This document shows positions 35,240-52,380 of a DNA stretch of 64,000 nt, piece after piece. How positions within the stretch are numbered: position 1 is the first letter of the stretch; every line of letters begins with the position of its first letter. Both the position numbers and the translations under genes were made by a program. The DNA comes from a virus (taxonomy: Duplodnaviria > Heunggongvirae > Uroviricota > Caudoviricetes): the IMG/VR virus record IMGVR_UViG_3300028797_000096, positions 77,860-141,859 of that record; one strand, 5' to 3'. The notes below the pieces were generated by a model. It worked only from the letters and a program-made list of their open reading frames with translations, was not told where the DNA came from and did no database searches.

Positions 35240-37441
35240 ATGAAGATCTTGTTAGTTTTAAGAGGTATTCCAGGTTCTGGTAAATCTACTTGGATTAAAG
35301 AAAGAGATTTAGAAGCATACGTTTTAAGTACCGATGCTATTCGTTTATTATACTCTTCTCCAGAACAAACTATAAAAGGTAAATATATTGTTTCTAATAA
35401 ACATGATAAACATGTTTGGGCTTTCTTTAAAGAAAGATTAGAAGATCGTATGAAGAATGGTGATTTTACTATATTAGATGCTACACATACCAAAGAATCT
35501 TATTTAAAAGATTATAAAAAATTGTGTAAAGAATATAATTATCGTATGATTATTGTAGATTTTTCTTCTGTTGATTTAGATACTTGTAAAGAAAGAAATT
35601 TAATGCGGGAAAGTTATAAACAAGTACCAAATGAAGTATTAGATCGTATGTATAATCAAATAAAAGTACCATTACAAAATAAATATGAAATTTATGATTA
35701 TAATGAATTTCCTAATTTAGATAATTTTGTATATAAAATAGATGGTAATAAATGGAAAGAAGTAGTAATATTTGGTGATATACATAATTGTTATGATCCA
35801 ATAAGAAAATACTTTGAAGCATCTCCAGAATCTGATCAAAAATTATACATCTTTATTGGTGATTATTTTGATCGTGGTATTCAAGCTAAAGAAGTATTAC
35901 AGTTTTGTTTAGACCACTGTGAAAAAGAAAACTTTGTATTTTTACAAGGTAATCATGAAATATGGGCTAAGAATTATGTAAGAGATGGTGAAGCTGCTAA
36001 AATGACACCAGATTTCAAAGATTCTTTAGTACAGTTTGGTGAATTAAAAGATCAATTAAGTAAGTTTACTAGAAGATTAAAAGTAGCAGTAAATGTTAGT
36101 TTTTACTGTCAGGGTATTTATCATAGATTTTCTATTACTCATGGTGGATTAAGCTTTCCTTTAGATTATCGTACTTCTGCAATACAATGTATTAAAGGAG
36201 TAGGTGATTATGATGATTTAGATGAAGTAGAAAAAGCTTTTGGTAGTATTAATGAAAAAATGACTATGCAAGTATTAAACTACAAATGCTATAATGTACA
36301 TGGTCATCGTAATGTAACTAATAATCCAATTATAAGTGCAGACGGCTATAGTATTAACTTAGAAGGTAAAGTTGAATTTGGTGGTAATTTAAGAATAGTT
36401 GAATTATCTTATACAGACAAAATGAATATATTACCAATAGAAATACCAAATACAATTTATAACAAAGATATACAAATTCCTTCTAGTAGACATGATAATC
36501 CAATTATTCAACAATTGGATAGTAGTAGTTTAATACATAAAAAAGATTTGGGTGATGGTATAGTTTCTTATAACTTTAGTAGAGAAGCTTTTTATAGCCA
36601 AAAATGGAATAAATTAACTACTACAGCGAGAGGCTTATTTGTTGATACTAAGACAAATCAAGTAGTTGCTAGATCTTATCCTAAATTTTTTGAAGCAGAA
36701 CAGCATCCATCTACACAATGGAGAAATTTAGAAAAGACATTAGTATTTCCAGTAACTGCTTATTTGAAAGAAAATGGCTTTTTAGGTATTGTATCTGTAT
36801 ATAATGATCAATTATTTATTGCATCTAAATCTACAAATCAAGGCGAATATAAAGAAAACTTTGAGCGTATATTAAAAACACATACAAATATTGATAAATT
36901 AAAAGAATATTTAAAAGCTAATAATTGTTCCGCTATATTTGAATGTGTAGATCCACATAATGATCCGCATATTATTGAATATGTCAATGAAAAAGTTGTA
37001 TTATTAGATATAGTACAGAATGATTTTACAGATACATTTAAATCTTATGATGATGTATGGGAATTAGCTAAACAAATAGGATGTAAACCAAAAGAAATGT
37101 GTAAAGTATTTAATACCTTTGCTGAATTAAAATCTTTTATTGAAGCATTTGATAAAGATTTTCATGAAGAAATAGAAGGTTTTGTATTTGTAGATCAGAA
37201 TAATTTTATGATTAAATATAAAACACCTTTCTATAAATTCTGGAAAGACATGCGTAGAATGAAAGAATATATTAATAAAGGTGATAATGATAAATATTTT
37301 GCCGCTAAAAATGTAAAGTCTGAACAAACAAATTTGATGAATGATTTGTTTAGTTTTATGACAGGTATTAAAAATGGTGGTATTGATTTAGATACATTAT
37401 CCATTATTGATATTAAAAACAGTTATTATAATAAGGATTAA
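35240..37441 (+). CDS. Pnkp-like polynucleotide kinase / calcineurin-type phosphoesterase with C-terminal ligase-like domain
   Basis: P-loop LRGIPGSGKST; metallophosphoesterase motifs GDIHN, GDYFDRG, GNHE; C-terminal third has ligase-like elements (ARGLFVD, EGFVFV, KYKTPFYK) reminiscent of bacterial Pnkp RNA-repair enzymes. Confidence 0.65.
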   Translation: MKILLVLRGIPGSGKSTWIKERDLEAYVLSTDAIRLLYSSPEQTIKGKYIVSNKHDKHVWAFFKERLEDRMKNGDFTILDATHTKESYLKDYKKLCKEYNYRMIIVDFSSVDLDTCKERNLMRESYKQVPNEVLDRMYNQIKVPLQNKYEIYDYNEFPNLDNFVYKIDGNKWKEVVIFGDIHNCYDPIRKYFEASPESDQKLYIFIGDYFDRGIQAKEVLQFCLDHCEKENFVFLQGNHEIWAKNYVRDGEAAKMTPDFKDSLVQFGELKDQLSKFTRRLKVAVNVSFYCQGIYHRFSITHGGLSFPLDYRTSAIQCIKGVGDYDDLDEVEKAFGSINEKMTMQVLNYKCYNVHGHRNVTNNPIISADGYSINLEGKVEFGGNLRIVELSYTDKMNILPIEIPNTIYNKDIQIPSSRHDNPIIQQLDSSSLIHKKDLGDGIVSYNFSREAFYSQKWNKLTTTARGLFVDTKTNQVVARSYPKFFEAEQHPSTQWRNLEKTLVFPVTAYLKENGFLGIVSVYNDQLFIASKSTNQGEYKENFERILKTHTNIDKLKEYLKANNCSAIFECVDPHNDPHIIEYVNEKVVLLDIVQNDFTDTFKSYDDVWELAKQIGCKPKEMCKVFNTFAELKSFIEAFDKDFHEEIEGFVFVDQNNFMIKYKTPFYKFWKDMRRMKEYINKGDNDKYFAAKNVKSEQTNLMNDLFSFMTGIKNGGIDLDTLSIIDIKNSYYNKD

Positions 37442-46135: not shown

Positions 46136-46172
46136 GGGCGAGCGCCGGAGTCGGAGAGCCGGGGCAGACTGT
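46136..46172 (+). tRNA. tRNA-Tyr(GUA) exon 1 (intron-interrupted)
   Basis: GGGCGAG acceptor, CCGG D-stem, GCAGA anticodon stem, loop CUGU|; near-identical to E. coli tRNA-Tyr core (GCAGACTGTAAATCTGC) once spliced to exon 2. Confidence 0.65.
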
Positions 46173-46352
46173 AAAAAATTGCAGCCTTATATAGTAATAT
46201 ATAAGTGAAAATTTGGCTAAGTCGGGGAAAGCTAAGTTAAATGATATGCTAATCCCGAGCTAGGAGAAATCCGAGTGTAGAGACTTTACACCAGACATCT
46301 TATTGAGATGAAGAGAAAGTCCAGACTACAATGTGAAAACAATGTAGCAATG
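46173..46352 (+). ncRNA. group I intron (about 180 nt, ORF-less) in tRNA-Tyr anticodon loop
   Basis: inserted after U35; internal guide GCAG pairs with exon end CUGU with a U-G wobble at the splice site; shares GTGTAGAGACT and AAGTCCAGACTACAA blocks with the tRNA-Leu intron; ends in G before exon 2. Confidence 0.6.
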
Positions 46353-46402
46353 AAATCTGTTGTCTTATGACTGAGTTGGTTCGACTCCAACCTCTCCCAC
46401 CA
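46353..46402 (+). tRNA. tRNA-Tyr(GUA) exon 2
   Basis: AAA-TCTGT anticodon 3' half, 14-nt variable arm, GTTGG-TTCGACT-CCAAC T-arm, CTCTCCC-A-CCA. Confidence 0.65.
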
Positions 46403-47594
46403 CAAATGAAATCCTAGAACAACTGCTATGACATCTTAGTAATGTTATCAGCTCTAGGTAAAGATACAAGGGGATGAGTTAAATTCGACAGTATATTTTT
46501 ACTGGACTCGGTTTCAATACCGATATCTCCACCATAAAGTTTGGTGATATTTAGTTTATTACGAATAGAACATTTGGTACTAGACCAAAAGAAGCATAAG
46601 GGACATTGCAATATCACCGATACAGTTTACTAAATAATTACAAAAGATTATTTAATTGACTGGCATGATAAATGAACCAGCGAACGATAACTATAAATTA
46701 AGTGCAATAGCTGCTTGATTTAAATAAAGTTATCAATCGGAGCTGGGTAGAGCTTGGCAACAGAATCTACCAAATTTATTTGCGGGCTTAGCTCAAAAAG
46801 TATAGAAAAATATTTGGCTCGTGGGAATGCATAGTGTGTTCACCTGACTGTCACTCAGGAAATCAGATGGGGGCGGTACCCATACGAGTCGCCATAAAGT
46901 TTGGGTAAGTAGTGTGAAGTATAGCACACAGCACACTGGGCTGAAGTGTTAGGGGAAGTGCCTAACCAATAATCCCACCCTCAATTTAGCTGAGACTGCA
47001 GTAGTAGGCTAAATCCCTTGACTAACGTTCCTGGTCAGAACGATCGTCACTAGTCGATAGTAGTCGGAGTTTAATGCAGGTGTGACTTCGTTAGGTTAGG
47101 CCAACTAAATTCTGCATTTTTAATGTTTATACTTATTTCGAGTGAAATAGTCTCGAATGTATTGGTGTTCGACAATACAGCTTGCTGTAACAAGTCCAAG
47201 GGAAAGAATAGGAAACCTGAAAGAGCTCTAGTAAGGTGGAATTGGAAGTATAAATGTTTACTGTTGATATACTTTTATGTATATTAATTTCGGGTTTGAT
47301 AGGCCGGTTAGCTTGTACTCTTACAAGTCAGTGATCTAAATTCCGGGTCTTACTATCATTCTCCGCTTAAATTCCTATTAGCATTAGCTAGTATGGATTG
47401 CCAGAATGTAGAAATGCATTTTTGGTTTTTGGGGTAAAGTTTCAACTACTGATTGGACACCTCAATCCGAACATCACGGAGTTCAGCTAGTGATGCTCGA
47501 CTGAACATATTTCTGGGCCTTGACCAATGGTCGAGGATTTGCCGAGGCTTTTGGTGTTATTGAGCCATCGTAGAGAATCAAAACACCTTTATAT

Positions 47595-47669
47595 TGGCGT
47601 GTAGCTCAACGGCAGAGCTTTCGGCTGTTAACCGAATGGTTGTCCGTTCGAATCGGACCACGCCAGCCA
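47595..47669 (+). tRNA. tRNA-Asn(GUU)
   Basis: TGGCGTG/CACGCCA acceptor, anticodon loop CTGTTAA, GTCCG-TTCGAAT-CGGAC T-arm, encoded CCA. Confidence 0.85.
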
Positions 47670-47676
47670 TGTTTCT

Positions 47677-47751
47677 GGCCCCATCGTCTAATGGTTAGGA
47701 CACCGCCCTTTCAAGGCGAGAATCCCGGTTCAAATCCGAGTGGGGCTGCCA
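47677..47751 (+). tRNA. tRNA-Glu(UUC)
   Basis: GGCCCCA acceptor, anticodon loop CTTTCAA, GGTTCAAATCC T-loop, CCA. Confidence 0.75.
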
Positions 47752-47757
47752 ATTTAT

Positions 47758-47831
47758 TGGAGCATAGTTTAATGGTAGAACCCGGGATTTTGGTTCCCGT
47801 TATCTTGGTCCGAATCCAGGTGCTCCAACCA
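47758..47831 (+). tRNA. tRNA-Gln(UUG)
   Basis: TGGAGCA/TGCTCCA acceptor, anticodon stem CGGGA/TCCCG, loop TTTTGGT, CCA. Confidence 0.8.
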
Positions 47832-48024
47832 TTAAGTTTTACAGAAGTGTCTACTATTAGTTACGTATGAGGCTATAAAGGTAGGAATACGTATCAAAGA
47901 CAGCCTACTAATAAGCACGAAATAATTTTGGTAAGACTTATTAGAGGAAAGTTTTTCTTTTAGCATTGGCTAGAAGTATTACCTGAAAGTTAATATGAAA
48001 AAGTTATTAGCTTTCTTGGTCTAT

Positions 48025-48101
48025 GCTTGTTTAGCTCAGTTGGCTAGAGCATCTGCTTTACACGCAGAGGGTCAGGAGTTCGAGTCTCTTAACAAGCACC
48101 A
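48025..48101 (+). tRNA. tRNA-Val(UAC)
   Basis: GCTTGTT/AACAAGC acceptor, anticodon loop TTTACAC, GGAGTTCGAGTCTC T-arm, CCA. Confidence 0.85.
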
Positions 48102-48124
48102 AAAAATTTAAAAAAAGGAAATTA

Positions 48125-48616
48125 ATGAAAGCAATTTGTCCAAAATGTGGAATAGAATTTGAAAATGATACAAATCGAAAATTTTGTTCAAGAAAATGTG
48201 TAAATAGTCGTAATATTTCACAAGAAACAAAAAAGAAAATTTCAAATAAAATGAAAGCCAGATATCAAGAACCTGAATACAGAAAACAAATTTTGAATTT
48301 AAATAGAAAATTAGGTAATCATTTACATGAAGAAAAATTAAAAAGATTTGTAAAAGCAAAAAATGGGCAAATTTTAGATATTACATATGGGGAATTAGAA
48401 GAATACCAAAAAACTCATTTGGTATGTGAAATTTGTGGTAAAACTGAAATTGCTTCACATAACATAATAAAAAAGATATATCGAAATTATGTCGTGATCA
48501 TGATCATAAAACTTCTAAATTTCGTGGATTATTATGTAGTAATTGTAACAGAAAGTTAGGTTGGTTTGAAAATTTTAAAGATGAAATTTTCAAATATTTG
48601 AATAAAAAGCACCAGT
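48125..48616 (+). pseudogene. NUMOD3 + Endonuclease-VII/HNH-type homing endonuclease with frameshift
   Basis: N-terminal NUMOD3-like SQETKKKISNKMK; frame 2 reads ...LVCEICGKTEIASHNIIKK then must shift to frame 1 (DISKLCRDHDHKTSKFRGLLCSNCNRKLGWF) at the A6 run 48468-48473 to restore the CxxC...DHDH...RGLLC..CN motif. Confidence 0.6.
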
Positions 48617-48682
48617 AGTTTAATAGTAGAATGTAACCTTGCCAAGGTTAAGACCTCGGAGCATAACCGGGTTGGTGCACCA
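48609..48682 (+). tRNA. tRNA-Gly(GCC)-like, atypical arms
   Basis: GCACCAG/TTGGTGC acceptor, perfect anticodon stem TAACC/GGTTA with loop TTGCCAA, CCA; D-arm weak and T-loop AGCATAA non-canonical; overlaps the stop of the HNH pseudogene. Confidence 0.45.
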
Positions 48683-48684
48683 AT

Positions 48685-48774
48685 GGACAGATGGTAGAGT
48701 GGCTGAATACACTGGTCTTGAAAACCGGCATACCAGCAATGGTATCGGGGGTTCGAATCCCTCTCTGTCCGCCA
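48685..48774 (+). tRNA. tRNA-Ser(UGA)
   Basis: GGACAGA/TCTGTCC acceptor, loop CTTGAAA, long variable arm, GGGGTTCGAATCCC T-arm, CCA. Confidence 0.85.
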
Positions 48775-48782
48775 TTTTTTAA

Positions 48783-48872
48783 AGGAGTGGTGGTAGAGCG
48801 GTTTAATACAGCTGATTACTAATCAGCCGAAGCAGTAATGTTTCCGGGGGTTCAAATCCCTCCCACTCCGCC
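48783..48872 (+). tRNA. class II tRNA (Ser-like) with anticodon loop TTACTAA (anticodon ACU?)
   Basis: GGAGTGG/CCACTCC acceptor, GAGCGGTTTAA D-loop as in tRNA-Ser, perfect anticodon stem GCTGA/TCAGC, long variable arm, GGGGTTCAAATCCC, CCA; A at position 34 is unusual. Confidence 0.6.
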
Positions 48873-48888
48873 ATTACTTTATTAATTT

Positions 48889-48923
48889 TGGCCCTGTGGC
48901 GGAATTGGTAGACGCTGCAGACT
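48889..48923 (+). tRNA. tRNA-Leu(UAA) exon 1 (intron-interrupted)
   Basis: GGCCCTG acceptor, GGCGGAATTGGTAGACGC D-arm, GCAGA anticodon stem, loop CUU| ; intron inserted after U34 as in cyanobacterial/plastid tRNA-Leu(UAA). Confidence 0.65.
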
Positions 48924-49628
48924 TAGACGAAAATGAGTGTATCATAATTTATTGAAAAAGTAGTTCTATATCATAAGGAGTTAATCCTATGAAAAATAGA
49001 ATTACAGATCAAGAAATGATTGATATTATCATTAAGTCTCAAACAATGGCTTTAGCTGCTAAAAGATGTGGTATGGCATATACAACATTTATTAGGCATG
49101 CTAAAAGATTGGGTATTTATAAACCTAATCAAGGCGGAAAAGGTACTGAGAAAAAAAGATCTGCTAAAATATCTATAGAAGAAATTTTAGCAGGAAAGTA
49201 TCCTCAGTATCAAACATATAAATTAAAAACAAGATTAATAGATGAAGGATATAAAGAAGATAAGTGTGAGAAATGTGGGTGGTGTGAAAAATTAAAAAAT
49301 AGCAAATATACTCCATGCGAATTACATCATATCGATGGAAATCCTGAAAATCATTTATTATCTAATTTAATTATATTGTGTCCAAATTGCCATTCCTTAA
49401 CTAAATCTTATAGGTTTAGAAGAGGTAAGACTAATGAGCAACAAGGTAGGAAACTTCTCGATTGAATGCTGTCAAATTCGGTGAAAGGTTTTATAATCCT
49501 AACGCCGAGCGAAGCCTAGAAATAGGAACGTGTAGAGACTTAACGGCAGCCACCTAAGTAGAAATATATGGTGAAGACAAAGTCCAGACTACAAACAAGA
49601 AATTGGTAGTGAAAGCTATAGTAGTAAG
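48924..49628 (+). ncRNA. group I intron (Azoarcus / cyanobacterial tRNA-Leu type) carrying an HNH ORF
   Basis: 705 nt; guide GAGT pairs with exon end ACUU (U-G at splice site); core blocks TGTCAAATTCGGTGAAA and GTGTAGAGACTTAACGGCAGCCACCTAAG match the Azoarcus pre-tRNA-Ile intron recalled from memory; terminal G at 49628. Confidence 0.65.
48989..49465 (+). CDS. intron-encoded HNH homing endonuclease
   Basis: CEKCGWCEKL...CELHHIDGNPENHLLSNLIILCPNCH (HNH with two Cys pairs); lies wholly inside the tRNA-Leu group I intron; SD aaggag. Confidence 0.7.
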   Translation: MKNRITDQEMIDIIIKSQTMALAAKRCGMAYTTFIRHAKRLGIYKPNQGGKGTEKKRSAKISIEEILAGKYPQYQTYKLKTRLIDEGYKEDKCEKCGWCEKLKNSKYTPCELHHIDGNPENHLLSNLIILCPNCHSLTKSYRFRRGKTNEQQGRKLLD

Positions 49629-49682
49629 AAAATCTGTTGACAGTTAAATGTCGTACCGGTTCGATTCCGGTCAGGGCCACCA
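49629..49682 (+). tRNA. tRNA-Leu(UAA) exon 2
   Basis: AAAA-TCTGT, variable arm TGACAGTTAAATGTCGT, ACCGG-TTCGATT-CCGGT, CAGGGCC-A-CCA pairing exactly with exon 1 acceptor. Confidence 0.65.
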
Positions 49683-49694
49683 AAAAATTTATAT

Positions 49695-49770
49695 GGGGTT
49701 GTAGCTCAGTTGGTAGAGCATCTGCTTTGCAAGCAGAGAGTCGTCAGTTCGAGTCTGATCAGCTCCACCA
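49695..49770 (+). tRNA. tRNA-Ala(UGC)
   Basis: G3-U70 wobble identity pair, anticodon loop TTTGCAA, CCA. Confidence 0.8.
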
Positions 49771-49771
49771 T

Positions 49772-49848
49772 AGGAAGGTAGTTCAGATGGTTAGAATGTC
49801 GCTCTGATACAGCGAAGGTCGTGAGTTCGAATCTCACTCTTCCTACCA
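49772..49848 (+). tRNA. tRNA-Ile(GAU)
   Basis: AGGAAGG acceptor, anticodon loop CTGATAC, GTGAGTTCGAATCTCAC, CCA. Confidence 0.8.
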
Positions 49849-49856
49849 TAGTTTAT

Positions 49857-49932
49857 GCCTGCTTAGTTCAGTTGGTAGAACGACTGATTTGTAATCAGTA
49901 AGTCGGCGGTTCAAGTCCGTCAGCAGGCACCA
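49857..49932 (+). tRNA. tRNA-Thr(UGU)
   Basis: GCCTGCT/AGCAGGC acceptor, anticodon loop TTTGTAA, CCA. Confidence 0.8.
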
Positions 49933-50321
49933 GAGATTAGTAGGTAATCGTAGTATAGAGATAAAAGCCTTGAATCGTATATCCAATATATTTGAATGGA
50001 CGCCGTAGTCAGTAAAGGGACCTACTAAGTAAGAGATTTTGATAATAAAAAATAGGTTGAGCACATAGTGTTAACTCCAGGTTAGTCATGACTGCTGAGC
50101 ACAGACCGATCATGAAGTAACATACTTGAAACGATAGAGTAGGGTTACAGTTATCAAAATAGTGTTGGGGTAGAGTCTATATAATATATTAAGCATGTTT
50201 ATGCAATCCTTGGATGTTTATATTTGATTGACTCTACAACAATTTTAACCGGATATTAGTGAATGATAATTATTTATTATGCCTAATATCTATAAGTCTA
50301 AGAAAAACATAAGGAAAAAAT

Positions 50322-50747
50322 ATGTTTATTAATACAAATGGAGGTTTGATTGATACTCCAGAACGCTTAATCAATCATTTTGCATCTCTTCCTGAATATA
50401 CTGATATTCAGAAGTCTTTAATTGAAGATCATTGTGCTTGCTGTGCTAAAAGCTTTGCTAGAGGTGTTGGTAAAGTTACAAAAGAAGAGGTATGGTTTGG
50501 TGCTTTAGATGTGTTTCCATATATATCTAATAAGCATGAATTTACCAATGAAGATTTTTTAATTAAAAGATGGGGTATTGATTGGCAAAAAGCTAGGTTA
50601 AAAGAAAGACCAGATGTAGATATTGATAAATCTACTAAAAGTCAATTAGGAAAGATTTTTTACGATGCCTTATTGAGAGATAAAAACGCTATTTATAAAT
50701 GGCGTAGAGTAGAAGGCAAATATTTTGAATATTGTCGTATAAAATAG
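50322..50747 (+). CDS. hypothetical protein
   Basis: 141-aa ORF within tRNA island; CACCAK motif. Confidence 0.5.
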   Translation: MFINTNGGLIDTPERLINHFASLPEYTDIQKSLIEDHCACCAKSFARGVGKVTKEEVWFGALDVFPYISNKHEFTNEDFLIKRWGIDWQKARLKERPDVDIDKSTKSQLGKIFYDALLRDKNAIYKWRRVEGKYFEYCRIK

Positions 50748-50835
50748 TTCAAATATAAAAGGGTGGGACAATTGCTATGATGTTTTAGTAACATTATCAA
50801 TCCCACCCAATGAGTTTAAAATAAGAGGTAAAATC

Positions 50836-51108
50836 ATGTCATTTAACCGTAAACAAACACCAATTGCAACAAACGATCATTGGAATTTATATTTATTAGG
50901 ATTTTGTAAAGAAAATGTTCGTAAAGCTGTGTTAATTAATTATCTTACTAATGATGAATTATCTGCAAAAGTTAATGTAGGTGCAGATATTACTGGTAAA
51001 AATACACAATATACTGTAATTGAAGCGGTTGATGAAAAAACAAATCATTTAGTTGATTTTACTAAAACATTTGTTGTTCCGGGTAAATATGTTAAAACTC
51101 GTGGATAA
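50836..51108 (+). CDS. hypothetical protein
   Basis: 90-aa ORF, SD aagaggtaaaatcATG. Confidence 0.5.
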   Translation: MSFNRKQTPIATNDHWNLYLLGFCKENVRKAVLINYLTNDELSAKVNVGADITGKNTQYTVIEAVDEKTNHLVDFTKTFVVPGKYVKTRG

Positions 51109-51377
51109 TAAATATTAAAAGTTTTGGTCTTATAGGTCAAAGACTAAAATGACGGGGACAGCCTGAAGATAGGAGGCTGCTGCTTGGATCGGCAATATAG
51201 GGTCTCACAAAATACATAAGATTGACCTCACAGTGTTTTCACGCTGATAATCTTATGGTGAGTGTATGCAAAACCTGATTGAGTTGGTTCAAATCCAGAC
51301 AGTTAGGTAGGCAAGGTGTTGGAGCATGAACACACTTAGATGGGTTGCTCCTTATAGTTTTATAGGAAGGATATGAT

Positions 51378-51611
51378 ATGAAAGATATATGTACTGAAAT
51401 TATAAAAGAGTTAGAAAAAATGGGATATACTGCATTTCAAATAACTCCAGAGATGTCTATTCATGAAGATTTAGGTTTAGATTCATTAGATACTATTGAA
51501 TTGGTTGCTAAATTAGAAGAAAAATTTGATATTCGTATAAAAGATGATGATTTAGTAGATGTAAAAACGATTCAAGATATTGTAGATATTGCTAATAAAT
51601 ATTTAAAATGA
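51378..51611 (+). CDS. acyl carrier protein
   Basis: 77 aa acidic; phosphopantetheine attachment motif DLGLDSLDTIELVAKLEEKFDIRI. Confidence 0.8.
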   Translation: MKDICTEIIKELEKMGYTAFQITPEMSIHEDLGLDSLDTIELVAKLEEKFDIRIKDDDLVDVKTIQDIVDIANKYLK

Positions 51612-51734
51612 GAGTTTAACCGATAAAAGAAATAGTTCTATATAATATGAAAAAAATAAATGTATGTTTTTGGCCATGCTTTCCTAGTACCTTTGGAGGT
51701 AAGTGTTAATCATACTTTTATAGAAGATTAGATA

Positions 51735-51764
51735 CCTCCAGAAATAAAAAGCTGGAGGTTTTTT
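51735..51764 (+). terminator. rho-independent terminator after the ACP gene
   Basis: CCTCCAG-aaataaaaag-CTGGAGG then TTTTTT. Confidence 0.8.
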
Positions 51765-51853
51765 AATTGAGTTTGGTAGTTGTAGTATAATCAATACACT
51801 TCCCAATGGGGTAGAAGAGATGTAAGTAAAATCTTATCGATTACCACAGTTTA

Positions 51854-51931
51854 TCGGAATGTAGGATAATCTGGTTATTCCGCCTGTTTTGGGTACAGGA
51901 GACTCCCGGTTCAAATCCGGGCATTCCGACC
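51854..51931 (+). tRNA. tRNA-Pro(UGG)
   Basis: CGGAATG/CATTCCG acceptor, anticodon loop TTTGGGT, CCCGGTTCAAATCCGGG, CCA. Confidence 0.8.
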
Positions 51932-51937
51932 AGTTTT

Positions 51938-52014
51938 TGGCTGGGTAGCTCAGTTGGTAGAGCAAGGGACTGAAAATCCCTGTGTCAGTGGTTCGATCCC
52001 GCTCTCAGCCACCA
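51938..52014 (+). tRNA. tRNA-Phe(GAA)
   Basis: GCTCAGTTGGTAGAGC D-arm, anticodon loop CTGAAAA, CCA. Confidence 0.85.
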
Positions 52015-52019
52015 ATCTT

Positions 52020-52093
52020 GGCCAGGTGGCAGAATGATTATGCAGAGGACTGCAAATCCTTGTACATCGGTTTGATTCCGGTCCTGGCCTCCA
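52020..52093 (+). tRNA. tRNA-Cys(GCA)
   Basis: GGCCAGG/CCTGGCC acceptor, anticodon loop CTGCAAA, discriminator U, CCA. Confidence 0.75.
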
Positions 52094-52098
52094 AATCT

Positions 52099-52172
52099 AG
52101 GTCATTAGTTTAGTGATAAAACAAAGATCTCCAAAATCTTAGTCGGTGGTTTGATTCCATCATGACCTGCCA
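52099..52172 (+). tRNA. tRNA-Trp(CCA)
   Basis: AGGTCAT/ATGACCT acceptor, anticodon loop CTCCAAA, CCA. Confidence 0.75.
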
Positions 52173-52303
52173 TTATTTTGGAAATTTAGTTAAAAAAAGT
52201 ATTTACAAATAAAAATAAATGTATATAATATATAATATCTACTTGCTGCCATACTAGATTTCCCAGTTACCATCGTAGTAAGTACAGCAAGTAGGTAGTT
52301 TAT

Positions 52304-52380
<77 letters not shown>

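What the first reader, a model, noticed from the sequence alone, without database searches (positions are those of the whole stretch)
48889..49682. tRNA-Leu(UAA) interrupted after U34 by a group I intron carrying an HNH homing endonuclease
Exon 1 and exon 2 rebuild a class II tRNA-Leu with loop CUU|AAAA. The 705-nt insert has P1 pairing (GAGU with ACUU) and core blocks (UGUCAAAUUCGGUGAAA; GUGUAGAGACUUAACGGCAGCCACCUAAG) that, as I recall it, match the Azoarcus / cyanobacterial tRNA-Leu(UAA) IC3 intron family. The insertion site is the same as the ancient cyanobacterial and plastid tRNA-Leu intron. An HNH endonuclease ORF (48989-49465) is embedded, implying mobility. Phage-borne tRNA group I introns with homing endonucleases are rare.
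Basis: partly seen in the sequence, partly recalled or inferred. Interest (0 to 1): 0.8.

Follow-up and report, generated by a model that had tools for sequence, protein, structure and literature searches.

The report
Mobile self-splicing intron in phage tRNA-Leu
A large phage carries a leucine tRNA gene split by a self-splicing group I intron that encodes its own DNA-cutting "homing" enzyme; it belongs to a large, apparently undescribed population of such elements in phage tRNA genes.

Summary
Joining 48890-48924 to 49629-49682 gives a class II tRNA-Leu(UAA) with encoded CCA (ARAGORN). The 704-nt insert (48925-49628) follows U34. It scores 65.1 bits on Rfam Intron_gpI (gathering 50).

All core helices pair in the window, with U.G at the 5' splice site and a terminal G. 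The fold is backed by covariation across 32 homologous tRNA-Leu introns: 94.7% of cells paired against 29-40% in slid controls.

The 158-aa ORF (48989-49465) is an HNH endonuclease under purifying selection (dN/dS 0.14-0.27).

Agrobacterium phage Atu_ph07, a 735-kb phage and 37 or more IMG/VR contigs carry the same intron. All 15 examined contigs encoding the closest relatives (83-100% core identity) carry the HNH gene inside this intron.

Near-identical introns (98.8%) sit in divergent tRNA-Leu genes (exon 2 69.6%), and an intron-less allele with identical exons exists. Relatives of the enzyme also lie free-standing beside tRNA-Leu genes.

Verdict: a new member of a known kind, probably mobile. 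Splicing and cleavage were not tested.

The parts
48890..48924 (+). tRNA-Leu(UAA) exon 1: acceptor 5' strand, D arm, anticodon stem 5' strand, C32 U33 U34
   Evidence: ARAGORN on the spliced sequence. The anticodon stem covaries across 32 homologs.
48925..49628 (+). Group I intron, 704 nt, ending in the terminal G at 49628
   Evidence: Rfam RF00028 65.1 bits. Family structure with covariation.
48921..48938 (+). P1: exon ACUU (48921-24) pairs with the internal guide GAGU (48935-38), with U.G at the splice site
   Evidence: Direct reading. U.G is present in 31 of 32 aligned homologs.
48940..48955 (+). Reduced P2-like hairpin (about 3 bp), followed by the conserved AGUAG (48959-63)
   Evidence: Comparison of 5' leaders in the HNH subfamily. 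The canonical 6-9 bp P2 of ORF-less relatives is not kept.
48964..49463 (+). 500-nt endonuclease cassette inserted between P2/AGUAG and GAAU+P3, with Shine-Dalgarno AAGGAG at 48975-80
   Evidence: Alignment with ORF-less relatives, which read AGUAGAA-P3 without a break.
48989..49465 (+). HNH homing endonuclease ORF, 158 aa: N-terminal three-helix domain, zinc cysteines C93 and C96 with C131xxC134, and the catalytic block ELHHIDGN...N..NL
   Evidence: PHROG HNH family phrog_10822, E 3.6e-20. Pfam HNH 18.9 bits, below the 21.4 cutoff. 940 homologs. AlphaFold2 pLDDT 87 with a beta-beta-alpha element. dN/dS 0.14-0.27.
49468..49550 (+). P3 (49468-73 with 49545-50), which encloses P4 (49478-83/49503-08), P5 (49486-88/49498-500), P6 (49509-11/49529-31), P6a (49515-18/49523-26, GAAA loop) and the 5' strand of P7
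   Evidence: All pairs are standard in the window. P3, P5 and P6 covary; P4 is 100% paired in 32 sequences.
49535..49585 (+). P7 pseudoknot (G49535 and 49537-41 with 49580-85, A49536 bulged), which encloses P3' and P8 (49551-54/49570-73, inner pairs 49559-60/49565-66); J8/7 is 49574-79
   Evidence: P7 is 100% paired in 32 sequences, and its closing pair switches A-U/U-A/G-C. P8 shows compensatory changes inside the HNH subfamily.
49588..49628 (+). P9 three-way junction: P9 (49588-92/49621-25), P9a (49596-98/49603-05, GAAA loop), P9b (49606-10/49615-19, GAAA loop), then UAAG with the terminal G
   Evidence: P9 covaries (ACUAC/GUAGU against ACCAC/GUGGU).
49629..49682 (+). tRNA-Leu(UAA) exon 2: A35 A36 A37 A38, anticodon stem 3' strand, long variable arm, T arm, acceptor 3' strand, CCA
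   Evidence: ARAGORN on the spliced sequence.

Best explanation
The element is a self-splicing group I intron of the tRNA-Leu(UAA) lineage, lodged between U34 and A35 of a phage-encoded tRNA-Leu(UAA) gene. It carries an HNH homing endonuclease gene.

Proposed mechanism; none of these steps was tested experimentally:
1. The tRNA array is transcribed.
2. The intron folds into P1 and P3-P9. An external guanosine attacks after U34, at the U.G pair of P1.
3. The freed exon 1 attacks after the terminal G (49628). The exons are ligated into a working tRNA-Leu(UAA).

The phage probably needs this tRNA. UUA and UUG make up 85% of its leucine codons, and no other tRNA-Leu lies in the window.

The 158-aa HNH protein would be translated from the precursor or from the excised intron. 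It would nick or cut intron-less tRNA-Leu(UAA) alleles at or near the conserved anticodon-arm sequence GACGCUGCAGACUU|AAAAUCUG in co-infecting phages. Recombinational repair from the intron-bearing copy would then copy the intron and ORF into the cut allele (homing).

The ORF lies between P2 and P3, not in the P6 loop used by homologous endonucleases in related introns. The same enzyme family therefore seems to have entered this intron lineage several times.

Shown here: gene anatomy, fold conservation, selection on the ORF, and presence/absence and exon/intron discordance patterns. Inferred: catalysis, the cleavage site, and homing itself.
For: **tRNA and intron.** The spliced sequence is a tRNA-Leu(UAA). 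Rfam Intron_gpI gives 65.1 bits. In the window, 48 of the 49 family pairs outside P2 are standard. The exception is a P5 pair displaced by the alignment; AGG/CCU pairs on direct reading.

**Family fold.** 94.7% of cells are paired against 29-40% in slid controls. 39 of 58 pairs show compensatory changes. 0 of 500 shuffles reach the observed values.

**Constraint after the ORF arrived.** The HNH-bearing subfamily itself shows compensatory changes. P3 is GCUGUC/GGCAGC in the window and GCUAUC/GGUAGC in L129. P8 is CACC/GGUG against UUCC/GGAA. Window and L126 differ at 4 of 164 aligned core positions (97.6% identical), although synonymous divergence of the ORF is dS 0.31.

**The endonuclease.** PHROG HNH match E 3.6e-20. 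Catalytic and zinc residues are invariant or nearly so across 41 homologs. dN/dS is 0.14-0.27.

**Mobility.**
- Window against L127: core 98.8% identical, exon 2 only 69.6%.
- L357 (with intron) and L380 (without) have 100% identical exons.
- 11 IMG/VR contigs hold an intron-less allele with the identical 22-nt anticodon arm.
- The P0001, P0009, P0030 and P0043 relatives, P0112 and P0090 and 6 metagenome members all sit in this intron.
- Homologous enzymes occur in P6, antisense in P6, and free-standing beside tRNA-Leu genes.

**Need for the tRNA.** Leucine codon usage.
Against: - No splicing or cleavage data exist for this element or any close relative.
- The ORF cassette interrupts the J2/3 joiner rather than a terminal loop, and the canonical P2 is reduced. 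A closing helix can be drawn, but covariation cannot test it.
- P10 is almost absent (1 bp).
- Some relatives have U-A at the splice site, or no obvious guide sequence. Not every member may still splice.
- The Pfam HNH score is below the curated cutoff (18.9 against 21.4).
- PDB sequence and fold searches give only weak matches.
- No syntenic intron-less version of this particular phage was found.
Confidence: 0.85

Rival explanations
1. The intron splices, but the endonuclease no longer promotes homing. It would be a fixed, domesticated or decaying passenger, and the intron is inherited vertically in this phage.
For: Homing elements often lose activity once they are fixed (review PMC3984707). 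No syntenic intron-less relative of this phage was found. The Pfam HNH score is sub-threshold.
Against: dN/dS of 0.14-0.27 over dS up to 1.3 shows the protein is maintained. Catalytic residues are invariant or nearly so. A 98.8% identical core sits in tRNA genes whose exon 2 is 69.6% identical, which points to recent transfer between alleles. A presence/absence pair exists.
Confidence: 0.1
2. The insert has disabled the gene. The ribozyme cannot fold because 500 nt lie in J2/3 and P2 is degenerate, so this is a tRNA pseudogene and the host supplies tRNA-Leu(UAA).
For: The ORF position is unusual, P2 is reduced and P10 is 1 bp. Some relatives lack a canonical P1.
Against: The core is far more conserved than synonymous sites of the ORF. 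Compensatory changes in P3 and P8 arose within the ORF-bearing subfamily. The exons keep a perfect cloverleaf with CCA. 85% of the phage's leucine codons need this tRNA.
Confidence: 0.04
3. The ORF product helps splicing (as a maturase) or defends the phage's tRNA region against competitors. It would not be a classical intron-homing enzyme.
For: The ORF is translated across or next to core helices in relatives. Free-standing homologs in tRNA arrays resemble T4 SegB-type marker exclusion (own knowledge; SegB in PMC13096335).
Against: No maturase activity is known for HNH intron proteins (own knowledge). ORF-less relatives of the same intron are common, so the RNA needs no such protein.
Confidence: 0.04

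Closest known systems
[quoted passage not shown] Nostoc/Anabaena PCC 7120), and its bacterial relatives
   Same: Same host gene and same site (U34/A35). Same helices P1-P9. The conserved blocks UCAAAUUCGG, CCGAGC.AAGC, GUG(U/C)AGAGACU..ACGG and AGUCC are shared. It aligns along its full length with 8 cyanobacterial and more than 40 other bacterial examples.
   Different: Core identity to a cyanobacterial member is only 58.6%. It sits in a phage, carries a 500-nt endonuclease cassette, and has a reduced P2. Classical members have no ORF.
HNH endonuclease gene in a tRNA-Leu(UAA) intron of a Bacteroidota genome (PMC13011429, 2026 survey of complete bacterial genomes)
   Same: [quoted passage not shown]
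   Different: That case is a single bacterial chromosome in a survey that left out phages. I could not retrieve its sequence, so homology to this element was not tested. The survey concluded that tRNA-intron endonucleases are rare and transfer infrequent.
Phage group I introns with HNH or GIY-YIG homing endonucleases in protein genes (T4 td/nrdB/nrdD, SPO1 I-HmuI, Pf-WMP3 I-PfoP3I)
   Same: A phage-borne self-splicing intron with an embedded homing endonuclease. Homing is expected during co-infection.
   Different: The host gene here is a tRNA, not a protein gene. A 2014 review states that all phage introns then known lay in protein-coding genes (PMC3984707).
Collaborative or trans homing: a free-standing endonuclease that targets an intron insertion site (F-CphI/psbA in cyanophage S-PM2; T4 mobE/I-TevIII)
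   Same: Relatives of this HNH lie free-standing beside ORF-less intron-containing tRNA-Leu(UAA) genes (L419, L420, L423, L425, L434, L435). Others lie beside intron-less tRNA-Leu genes. [quoted passage not shown]
   Different: In the window the endonuclease is already inside the intron. Target sites are unknown for every member.
tRNA introns of Lak megaphages (10.1101/356790)
   Same: Large gut phages with tRNA arrays in which some tRNAs, including Tyr(GUA), carry introns. This window also holds an intron-split tRNA-Tyr(GUA).
   Different: The Lak introns were called enigmatic. They were not assigned to group I, and neither a Leu intron nor an endonuclease was reported. This window uses the standard genetic code, and its capsid has no close match among GenBank phages (34% identity at best).

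Membership tests
Group I intron (Rfam RF00028) | Covariance-model score at or above the curated gathering score | tested here: met
   65.1 bits against 50, E 4e-16; found again. Missed in 64-kb scans because of the speed filters.
Group I intron (Rfam RF00028) | P1 formed by the end of the 5' exon and an internal guide, with U.G at the cleavage site | tested here: met
   ACUU (48921-24) with GAGU (48935-38). U.G in 31 of 32 homologs.
Group I intron (Rfam RF00028) | Conserved core P3-P8 with the P3/P7 pseudoknot, and a terminal G | tested here: met
   All core pairs are standard in the window. Covariation supports the fold. G49628 precedes exon 2.
Group I intron (Rfam RF00028) | Guanosine-dependent self-splicing | not testable with these tools
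   Needs an in vitro splicing assay or RNA-seq junction reads.
tRNA-Leu(UAA) intron lineage | Insertion between U34 and A35 of tRNA-Leu(UAA) | tested here: met
   Spliced loop is CUU|AAAA. The same site is used in 52 of 120 bacterial loci and in at least 37 IMG/VR loci.
tRNA-Leu(UAA) intron lineage | Full-length sequence and structure homology with cyanobacterial members | tested here: met
   It aligns from P1 to P9 with a Microcystaceae intron, at 58.6% core identity and with shared helices. Seven further cyanobacterial introns show the same blocks.
Subgroup IC3 (Azoarcus-like) | Assignment by subgroup-specific covariance models, or by the defining peripheral elements | not tested
   No subgroup models are available here. 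The lack of a P5abc extension and the presence of GAAA loops fit IC3 only from my own knowledge. No Azoarcus sequence was compared.
HNH homing endonuclease | HNH beta-beta-alpha-metal motif with catalytic His and Asn and zinc cysteines | tested here: met
   C93 and C96, ELHHIDGN, N126 and C131xxC134 read directly, and invariant or nearly invariant in 41 homologs. PHROG HNH E 3.6e-20. The model has strands 111-114 and 127-130 and helix 132-136. Pfam HNH is sub-threshold.
HNH homing endonuclease | Encoded inside a self-splicing intron, with presence/absence polymorphism of the element | tested here: met
   The ORF lies within the intron. L357 and L380 have identical exons, with and without the intron. 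Intron and exon identities are discordant. This was shown for close relatives, not for this phage's own locus.
HNH homing endonuclease | Site-specific nicking or cleavage of the intron-less allele | not testable with these tools
   Needs purified protein and an intron-less tRNA-Leu(UAA) substrate.

The most novel reading that the evidence does not exclude

That family is caught in every stage of the proposed origin of mobile introns:
- free-standing beside intron-less tRNA-Leu;
- free-standing beside an ORF-less intron;
- inside the intron, in at least two different positions and in both orientations.

In some members translation runs through the ribozyme core.

If this is right, phage-mediated homing could explain the patchy distribution of this intron across bacterial phyla.
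Probability: 0.5. Interest if true: 0.65.

Novelty: new member of a known kind. Interest (0 to 1): 0.5.

Why it matters
The tRNA-Leu(UAA) intron is the textbook "oldest intron", and whether it spreads horizontally has long been debated. A 2014 review stated that phage introns occur only in protein genes. A 2026 survey of bacterial genomes concluded that tRNA-intron endonucleases are rare and transfer infrequent.

This locus and its relatives show that phages carry this intron, often with an endonuclease that is under selection. Near-identical introns sit in divergent tRNA-Leu genes.

That gives a concrete system for testing intron homing into tRNA genes and the stepwise birth of a mobile intron. 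Atu_ph07 is a cultured phage with the ORF-less form.

There is also a practical point. Standard tRNA finders and whole-contig Rfam scans miss these genes, so tRNA-Leu and tRNA-Tyr can be wrongly scored as absent from phage genomes.

Tried and rejected
- **Rfam at window scale.** Scans of the whole 64-kb window, with gathering or E-value thresholds, found no intron. Only scans of 8 kb or less did.
- **ARAGORN in intron mode.** It mis-called the locus as tRNA-Ser(aga) with an intron at the canonical 37/38 site. I rejected this: the U34/A35 split gives a proper Leu cloverleaf, a U.G pair and a terminal G.
- **Closing helix around the ORF cassette.** RNAfold proposes UUCUAU/GUAGGA and neighbouring pairs. 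Both strands are invariant or coding in relatives, so the helix stays unsupported.
- **Loizos-type test.** I compared the sequence flanking the ORF with the exon junction by eye. Only AA..CUGU is shared on the 3' side, which is inconclusive.
- **Promoters.** Sigma-70-like sites in 47500-50100 were no more frequent than in shuffles. There is no evidence for an internal promoter.
- **Protein structure.** The PDB sequence search found nothing significant. Foldseek gave only weak matches, to the McrA and Cap5 HNH domains and to helix-turn-helix domains, all with E of 0.02 or more.
- **Metagenome pattern scan.** Most of the 120 hits were random; 6 were true members.
- **Generic splice-site search.** It produced many false tRNA calls with long "introns". 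Only the shortest candidate per locus, under 1000 nt, was counted.
- **Lak megaphage identity.** Rejected: the standard code fits, and the capsid has no close match among GenBank phages, the best being Xanthomonas phage phiXF1 at 34%.
- **Literature.** No paper found describes a group I intron in a phage tRNA-Leu gene.

Full report
**1. What is in the sequence**

The region lies in a tRNA array (47595-52380) of a low-GC phage. The window encodes a major head protein (16716-18257, minus strand) and a polynucleotide kinase-phosphatase/RNA ligase fusion (35240-37441). The standard genetic code fits. No GenBank phage is close; the capsid is 34% identical to that of Xanthomonas phage phiXF1. The exact HNH protein occurs on a 136-kb ENA metagenome contig and on one contig of 0.2-1 Mb.

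ARAGORN and Rfam list no tRNA-Leu in the window. Joining 48890-48924 to 49629-49682 gives an 89-nt class II tRNA-Leu(UAA) with anticodon loop CUU|AAAA and an encoded CCA. The insert is 704 nt (48925-49628) and ends in G.

**2. The insert is a group I intron**

Rfam Intron_gpI scores 65.1 bits (gathering 50, E 4e-16) when the region is scanned alone or within 8 kb. Both 64-kb scans miss it.

I collected homologs in three ways:
- blastn against GenBank phages;
- a scan of IMG/VR for the P7 motif GTGTAGAGACTNNACGG;
- a scan of GTDB species genomes for GTGYAGAGACTNNACGG.

Both scans stopped at their limit of 120 rows. Splicing candidate exons in silico and running ARAGORN showed tRNA-Leu(UAA) split at U34/A35 in these sources:
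- Agrobacterium phage Atu_ph07 (278-nt intron, not annotated);
- the 735-kb uncultured phage LR756501 (205 nt);
- at least 37 IMG/VR loci;
- 52 of 120 bacterial loci from many phyla, including eight cyanobacteria.

An alignment of 32 of these introns was made, with the window's ORF cassette removed (A1). It yields a consensus fold with P2, P3, P4, P5, P6/P6a, P8 and a P9 three-way junction. I added P1 and the P7 pseudoknot by hand. With these, 94.7% of cells form standard pairs against 29-40% when partners are slid. 39 of 58 pairs show changes on both sides, and 0 of 500 shuffles reach the observed values.

In the window every core pair is standard apart from one alignment-shifted P5 pair. The splice site has U.G, and A49536 is the bulge in P7. 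Only P2 departs: the ORF-bearing subfamily has a 3-4 bp hairpin where ORF-less relatives have 6-9 bp.

**3. The ORF**

ORF 48989-49465 is preceded by AAGGAG. Its 158-aa product matches PHROG HNH families (E 3.6e-20) and Pfam HNH just below threshold. It shows C93 and C96, ELHHIDGN, N126 and C131xxC134, which are invariant or nearly so across 41 homologs. AlphaFold2 gives pLDDT 87. The model has an N-terminal three-helix bundle and a C-terminal beta-beta-alpha element. Fold matches to HNH and helix-turn-helix domains are weak.

The protein database holds 940 homologs at E of 1e-5 or better. dN/dS against relatives is 0.14-0.27.

**4. Where the ORF sits**

ORF-less relatives read GAGUGC-P2-AGUAGAA-P3. 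The window reads GAGUG-hairpin-AGUAG, then 500 nt (48964-49463), then GAAU-P3. The stop codon lies 2 nt before P3.

In some relatives that stop is lost. The ORF then runs on through P3-P6 (L132, L135) or through P7 (L291, L361, which end ...EGVET).

Other IMG/VR introns carry homologous enzymes (32-44% identity) in other places:
- in the P6 loop (L030, L033, L068, L089), where the ORF ends at the UAG inside GUGUAGAGACU;
- antisense in P6 (L014, L099);
- near the 5' end (L087).

The same enzyme family has therefore entered this intron lineage repeatedly.

**5. Evidence that the RNA is still under selection**

Within the ORF-bearing subfamily, P3 and P8 show compensatory changes (window against L129). 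Window and L126 differ at 4 of 164 aligned core positions, although the ORF's synonymous divergence is dS 0.31. UUA and UUG make up 85% of leucine codons in 24 window ORFs, and 12 of 14 in the HNH ORF itself. No other tRNA-Leu is present in the window.

**6. Evidence for mobility**

- The relatives looked up at 57-91% identity fall into two groups. P0001, P0009, P0030, P0043, P0112 and P0090 lie inside a tRNA-Leu(UAA) intron. So do six members from a metagenome scan.
- P0081 and P0120 are free-standing, 9 and about 55 nt downstream of an intron-less tRNA-Leu(UAA).
- The window core is 98.8% identical to that of L127, but exon 2 is 69.6% identical and exon 1 is 88.6% identical. The anticodon arm GACGCTGCAGACTT|AAAATCTG is shared.
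- Eleven IMG/VR contigs have an intron-less gene with exactly this arm. One of them, L380 (227 kb), has exons 100% identical to those of the intron-bearing L357.

IMG/VR holds 558 stretches that encode relatives of the enzyme. The best 80 break down as follows:

| Arrangement | Loci |
|---|---|
| Inside a tRNA-Leu(UAA) intron | 9 |
| Free-standing within 300 nt of an intact tRNA-Leu (29 UAA, 10 UAG) | 39 |
| Free-standing beside an ORF-less intron-containing tRNA-Leu(UAA) | 6 |

These arrangements are the stages proposed for collaborative homing and endonuclease-gene invasion (PMC3984707, PMC6083498, PMC2790892).

**7. Relation to known families**

The intron belongs to the tRNA-Leu(UAA) lineage: same site, same helices, full-length alignment. 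Its nearest relatives are ORF-less phage introns (82%). Acidobacterial and gammaproteobacterial members follow at 74-76%, and a cyanobacterial member is at 58.6%. The IC3 and Azoarcus assignments were not tested.

In the literature I could search:
- the 2014 review says all phage introns are in protein genes;
- the Lak megaphage preprint reports unclassified tRNA introns in Phe, Gly, Thr and Tyr;
- a 2026 survey of complete bacterial genomes reports one HNH gene in a Bacteroidota tRNA-Leu(UAA) intron, and concludes such genes are rare.

No paper on phage tRNA-Leu introns was found.

**8. Verdict**

The observation and the interpretation are both correct. The element is a new member of known kinds (tRNA-Leu group I intron, HNH homing endonuclease) in a host context that is scarcely documented.

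The claim of rarity is wrong for sequence data. The wider pattern is more interesting than the single locus: an endonuclease family specialised on tRNA-Leu, seen free-standing and inside introns.

Splicing, the cleavage site and homing remain untested.

Noticed in passing
window 46136-46402: A second split tRNA. tRNA-Tyr(GUA) has exon 1 at 46136-46172, a 180-nt ORF-less group I intron at 46173-46352 and exon 2 at 46353-46402. The intron follows U35, and P1 is CUGU/GCAG. Rfam Intron_gpI gives 56.8 bits. The spliced sequence is called tRNA-Tyr(gta) by ARAGORN. The Lak megaphage preprint lists an 'enigmatic' intron in tRNA-Tyr(GTA).
   Followed up: partly
window 46403-47590: About 1.2 kb of GC-richer sequence without long ORFs lies upstream of the tRNA array. 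It contains a sub-threshold alpha_tmRNA match at 46622-46774 (36.4 bits against 50, E 9e-8) and tRNA-like 3' ends such as TCGGTTTCAATACCGATATCTCCACCA near 46508. It could be a permuted (two-piece) tmRNA or another structured RNA.
   Followed up: no
window 48125-48605: Between tRNA-Val and tRNA-Gly lies an ORF with a zinc-ribbon N-terminus. After a frameshift near an A-run, it continues with an Endonuclease VII-type motif (CRDHDHKTSKFRGLLCSNCNRKLGWFEN). It is probably a free-standing homing endonuclease of the F-CphI type, either decayed or affected by an assembly error. A relative's locus (L126) also has an Endonuclease_7 gene nearby.
   Followed up: partly
window 48609-48682: Rfam finds a tRNA-Gly(GCC) here (49.2 bits). 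ARAGORN misses it at default settings and finds it only at a relaxed threshold. Its T loop is unusual.
   Followed up: partly
L002 (Agrobacterium phage Atu_ph07, MF403008, record about 112880-113250) and L001 (LR756501): [quoted passage not shown] In Atu_ph07 a 'hypothetical protein' CDS (AUZ94936.1) is annotated across the 3' part of the intron and exon 2. Atu_ph07 is cultured, so splicing could be tested.
   Followed up: partly
L003 (Pelagibacter phage HTVC120P) 1464-1654; L004 (uncultured phage KM23-C739): A related intron core (73-84% identity over 85-155 nt) lies between two CDSs that are both annotated 'capsid protein'. The major capsid gene is probably split by an unannotated group I intron.
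   Followed up: no
L291, L361, L132, L135 (relatives): In these relatives the HNH ORF has lost the stop before P3. It is translated through P3-P6, or through P7 with protein tails ending ...NSVKP..EGVET, so ribozyme core and coding sequence overlap. L289, L291 and L361 also lack an obvious internal guide upstream of the ORF.
   Followed up: partly
L419, L420, L423, L425, L434, L435 (IMG/VR): Free-standing homologs of the HNH gene lie 24 to about 100 nt from an ORF-less intron-containing tRNA-Leu(UAA). This arrangement resembles collaborative homing.
   Followed up: yes
IMG/VR loci (e.g. L023, L080, L116, L059, L084, L067): The same P7 motif marks short group I introns in other phage tRNA genes: Arg(UCU), Met(CAU), Ser(UGA), Lys, Ala and others. 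The calls come from an automated splice search and were not checked one by one.
   Followed up: no
window 35240-37441: A 733-aa fusion of polynucleotide kinase-phosphatase and RNA ligase (phrog_8238, E 6e-175). This is a tRNA-repair enzyme, encoded about 10 kb upstream of the tRNA array.
   Followed up: no
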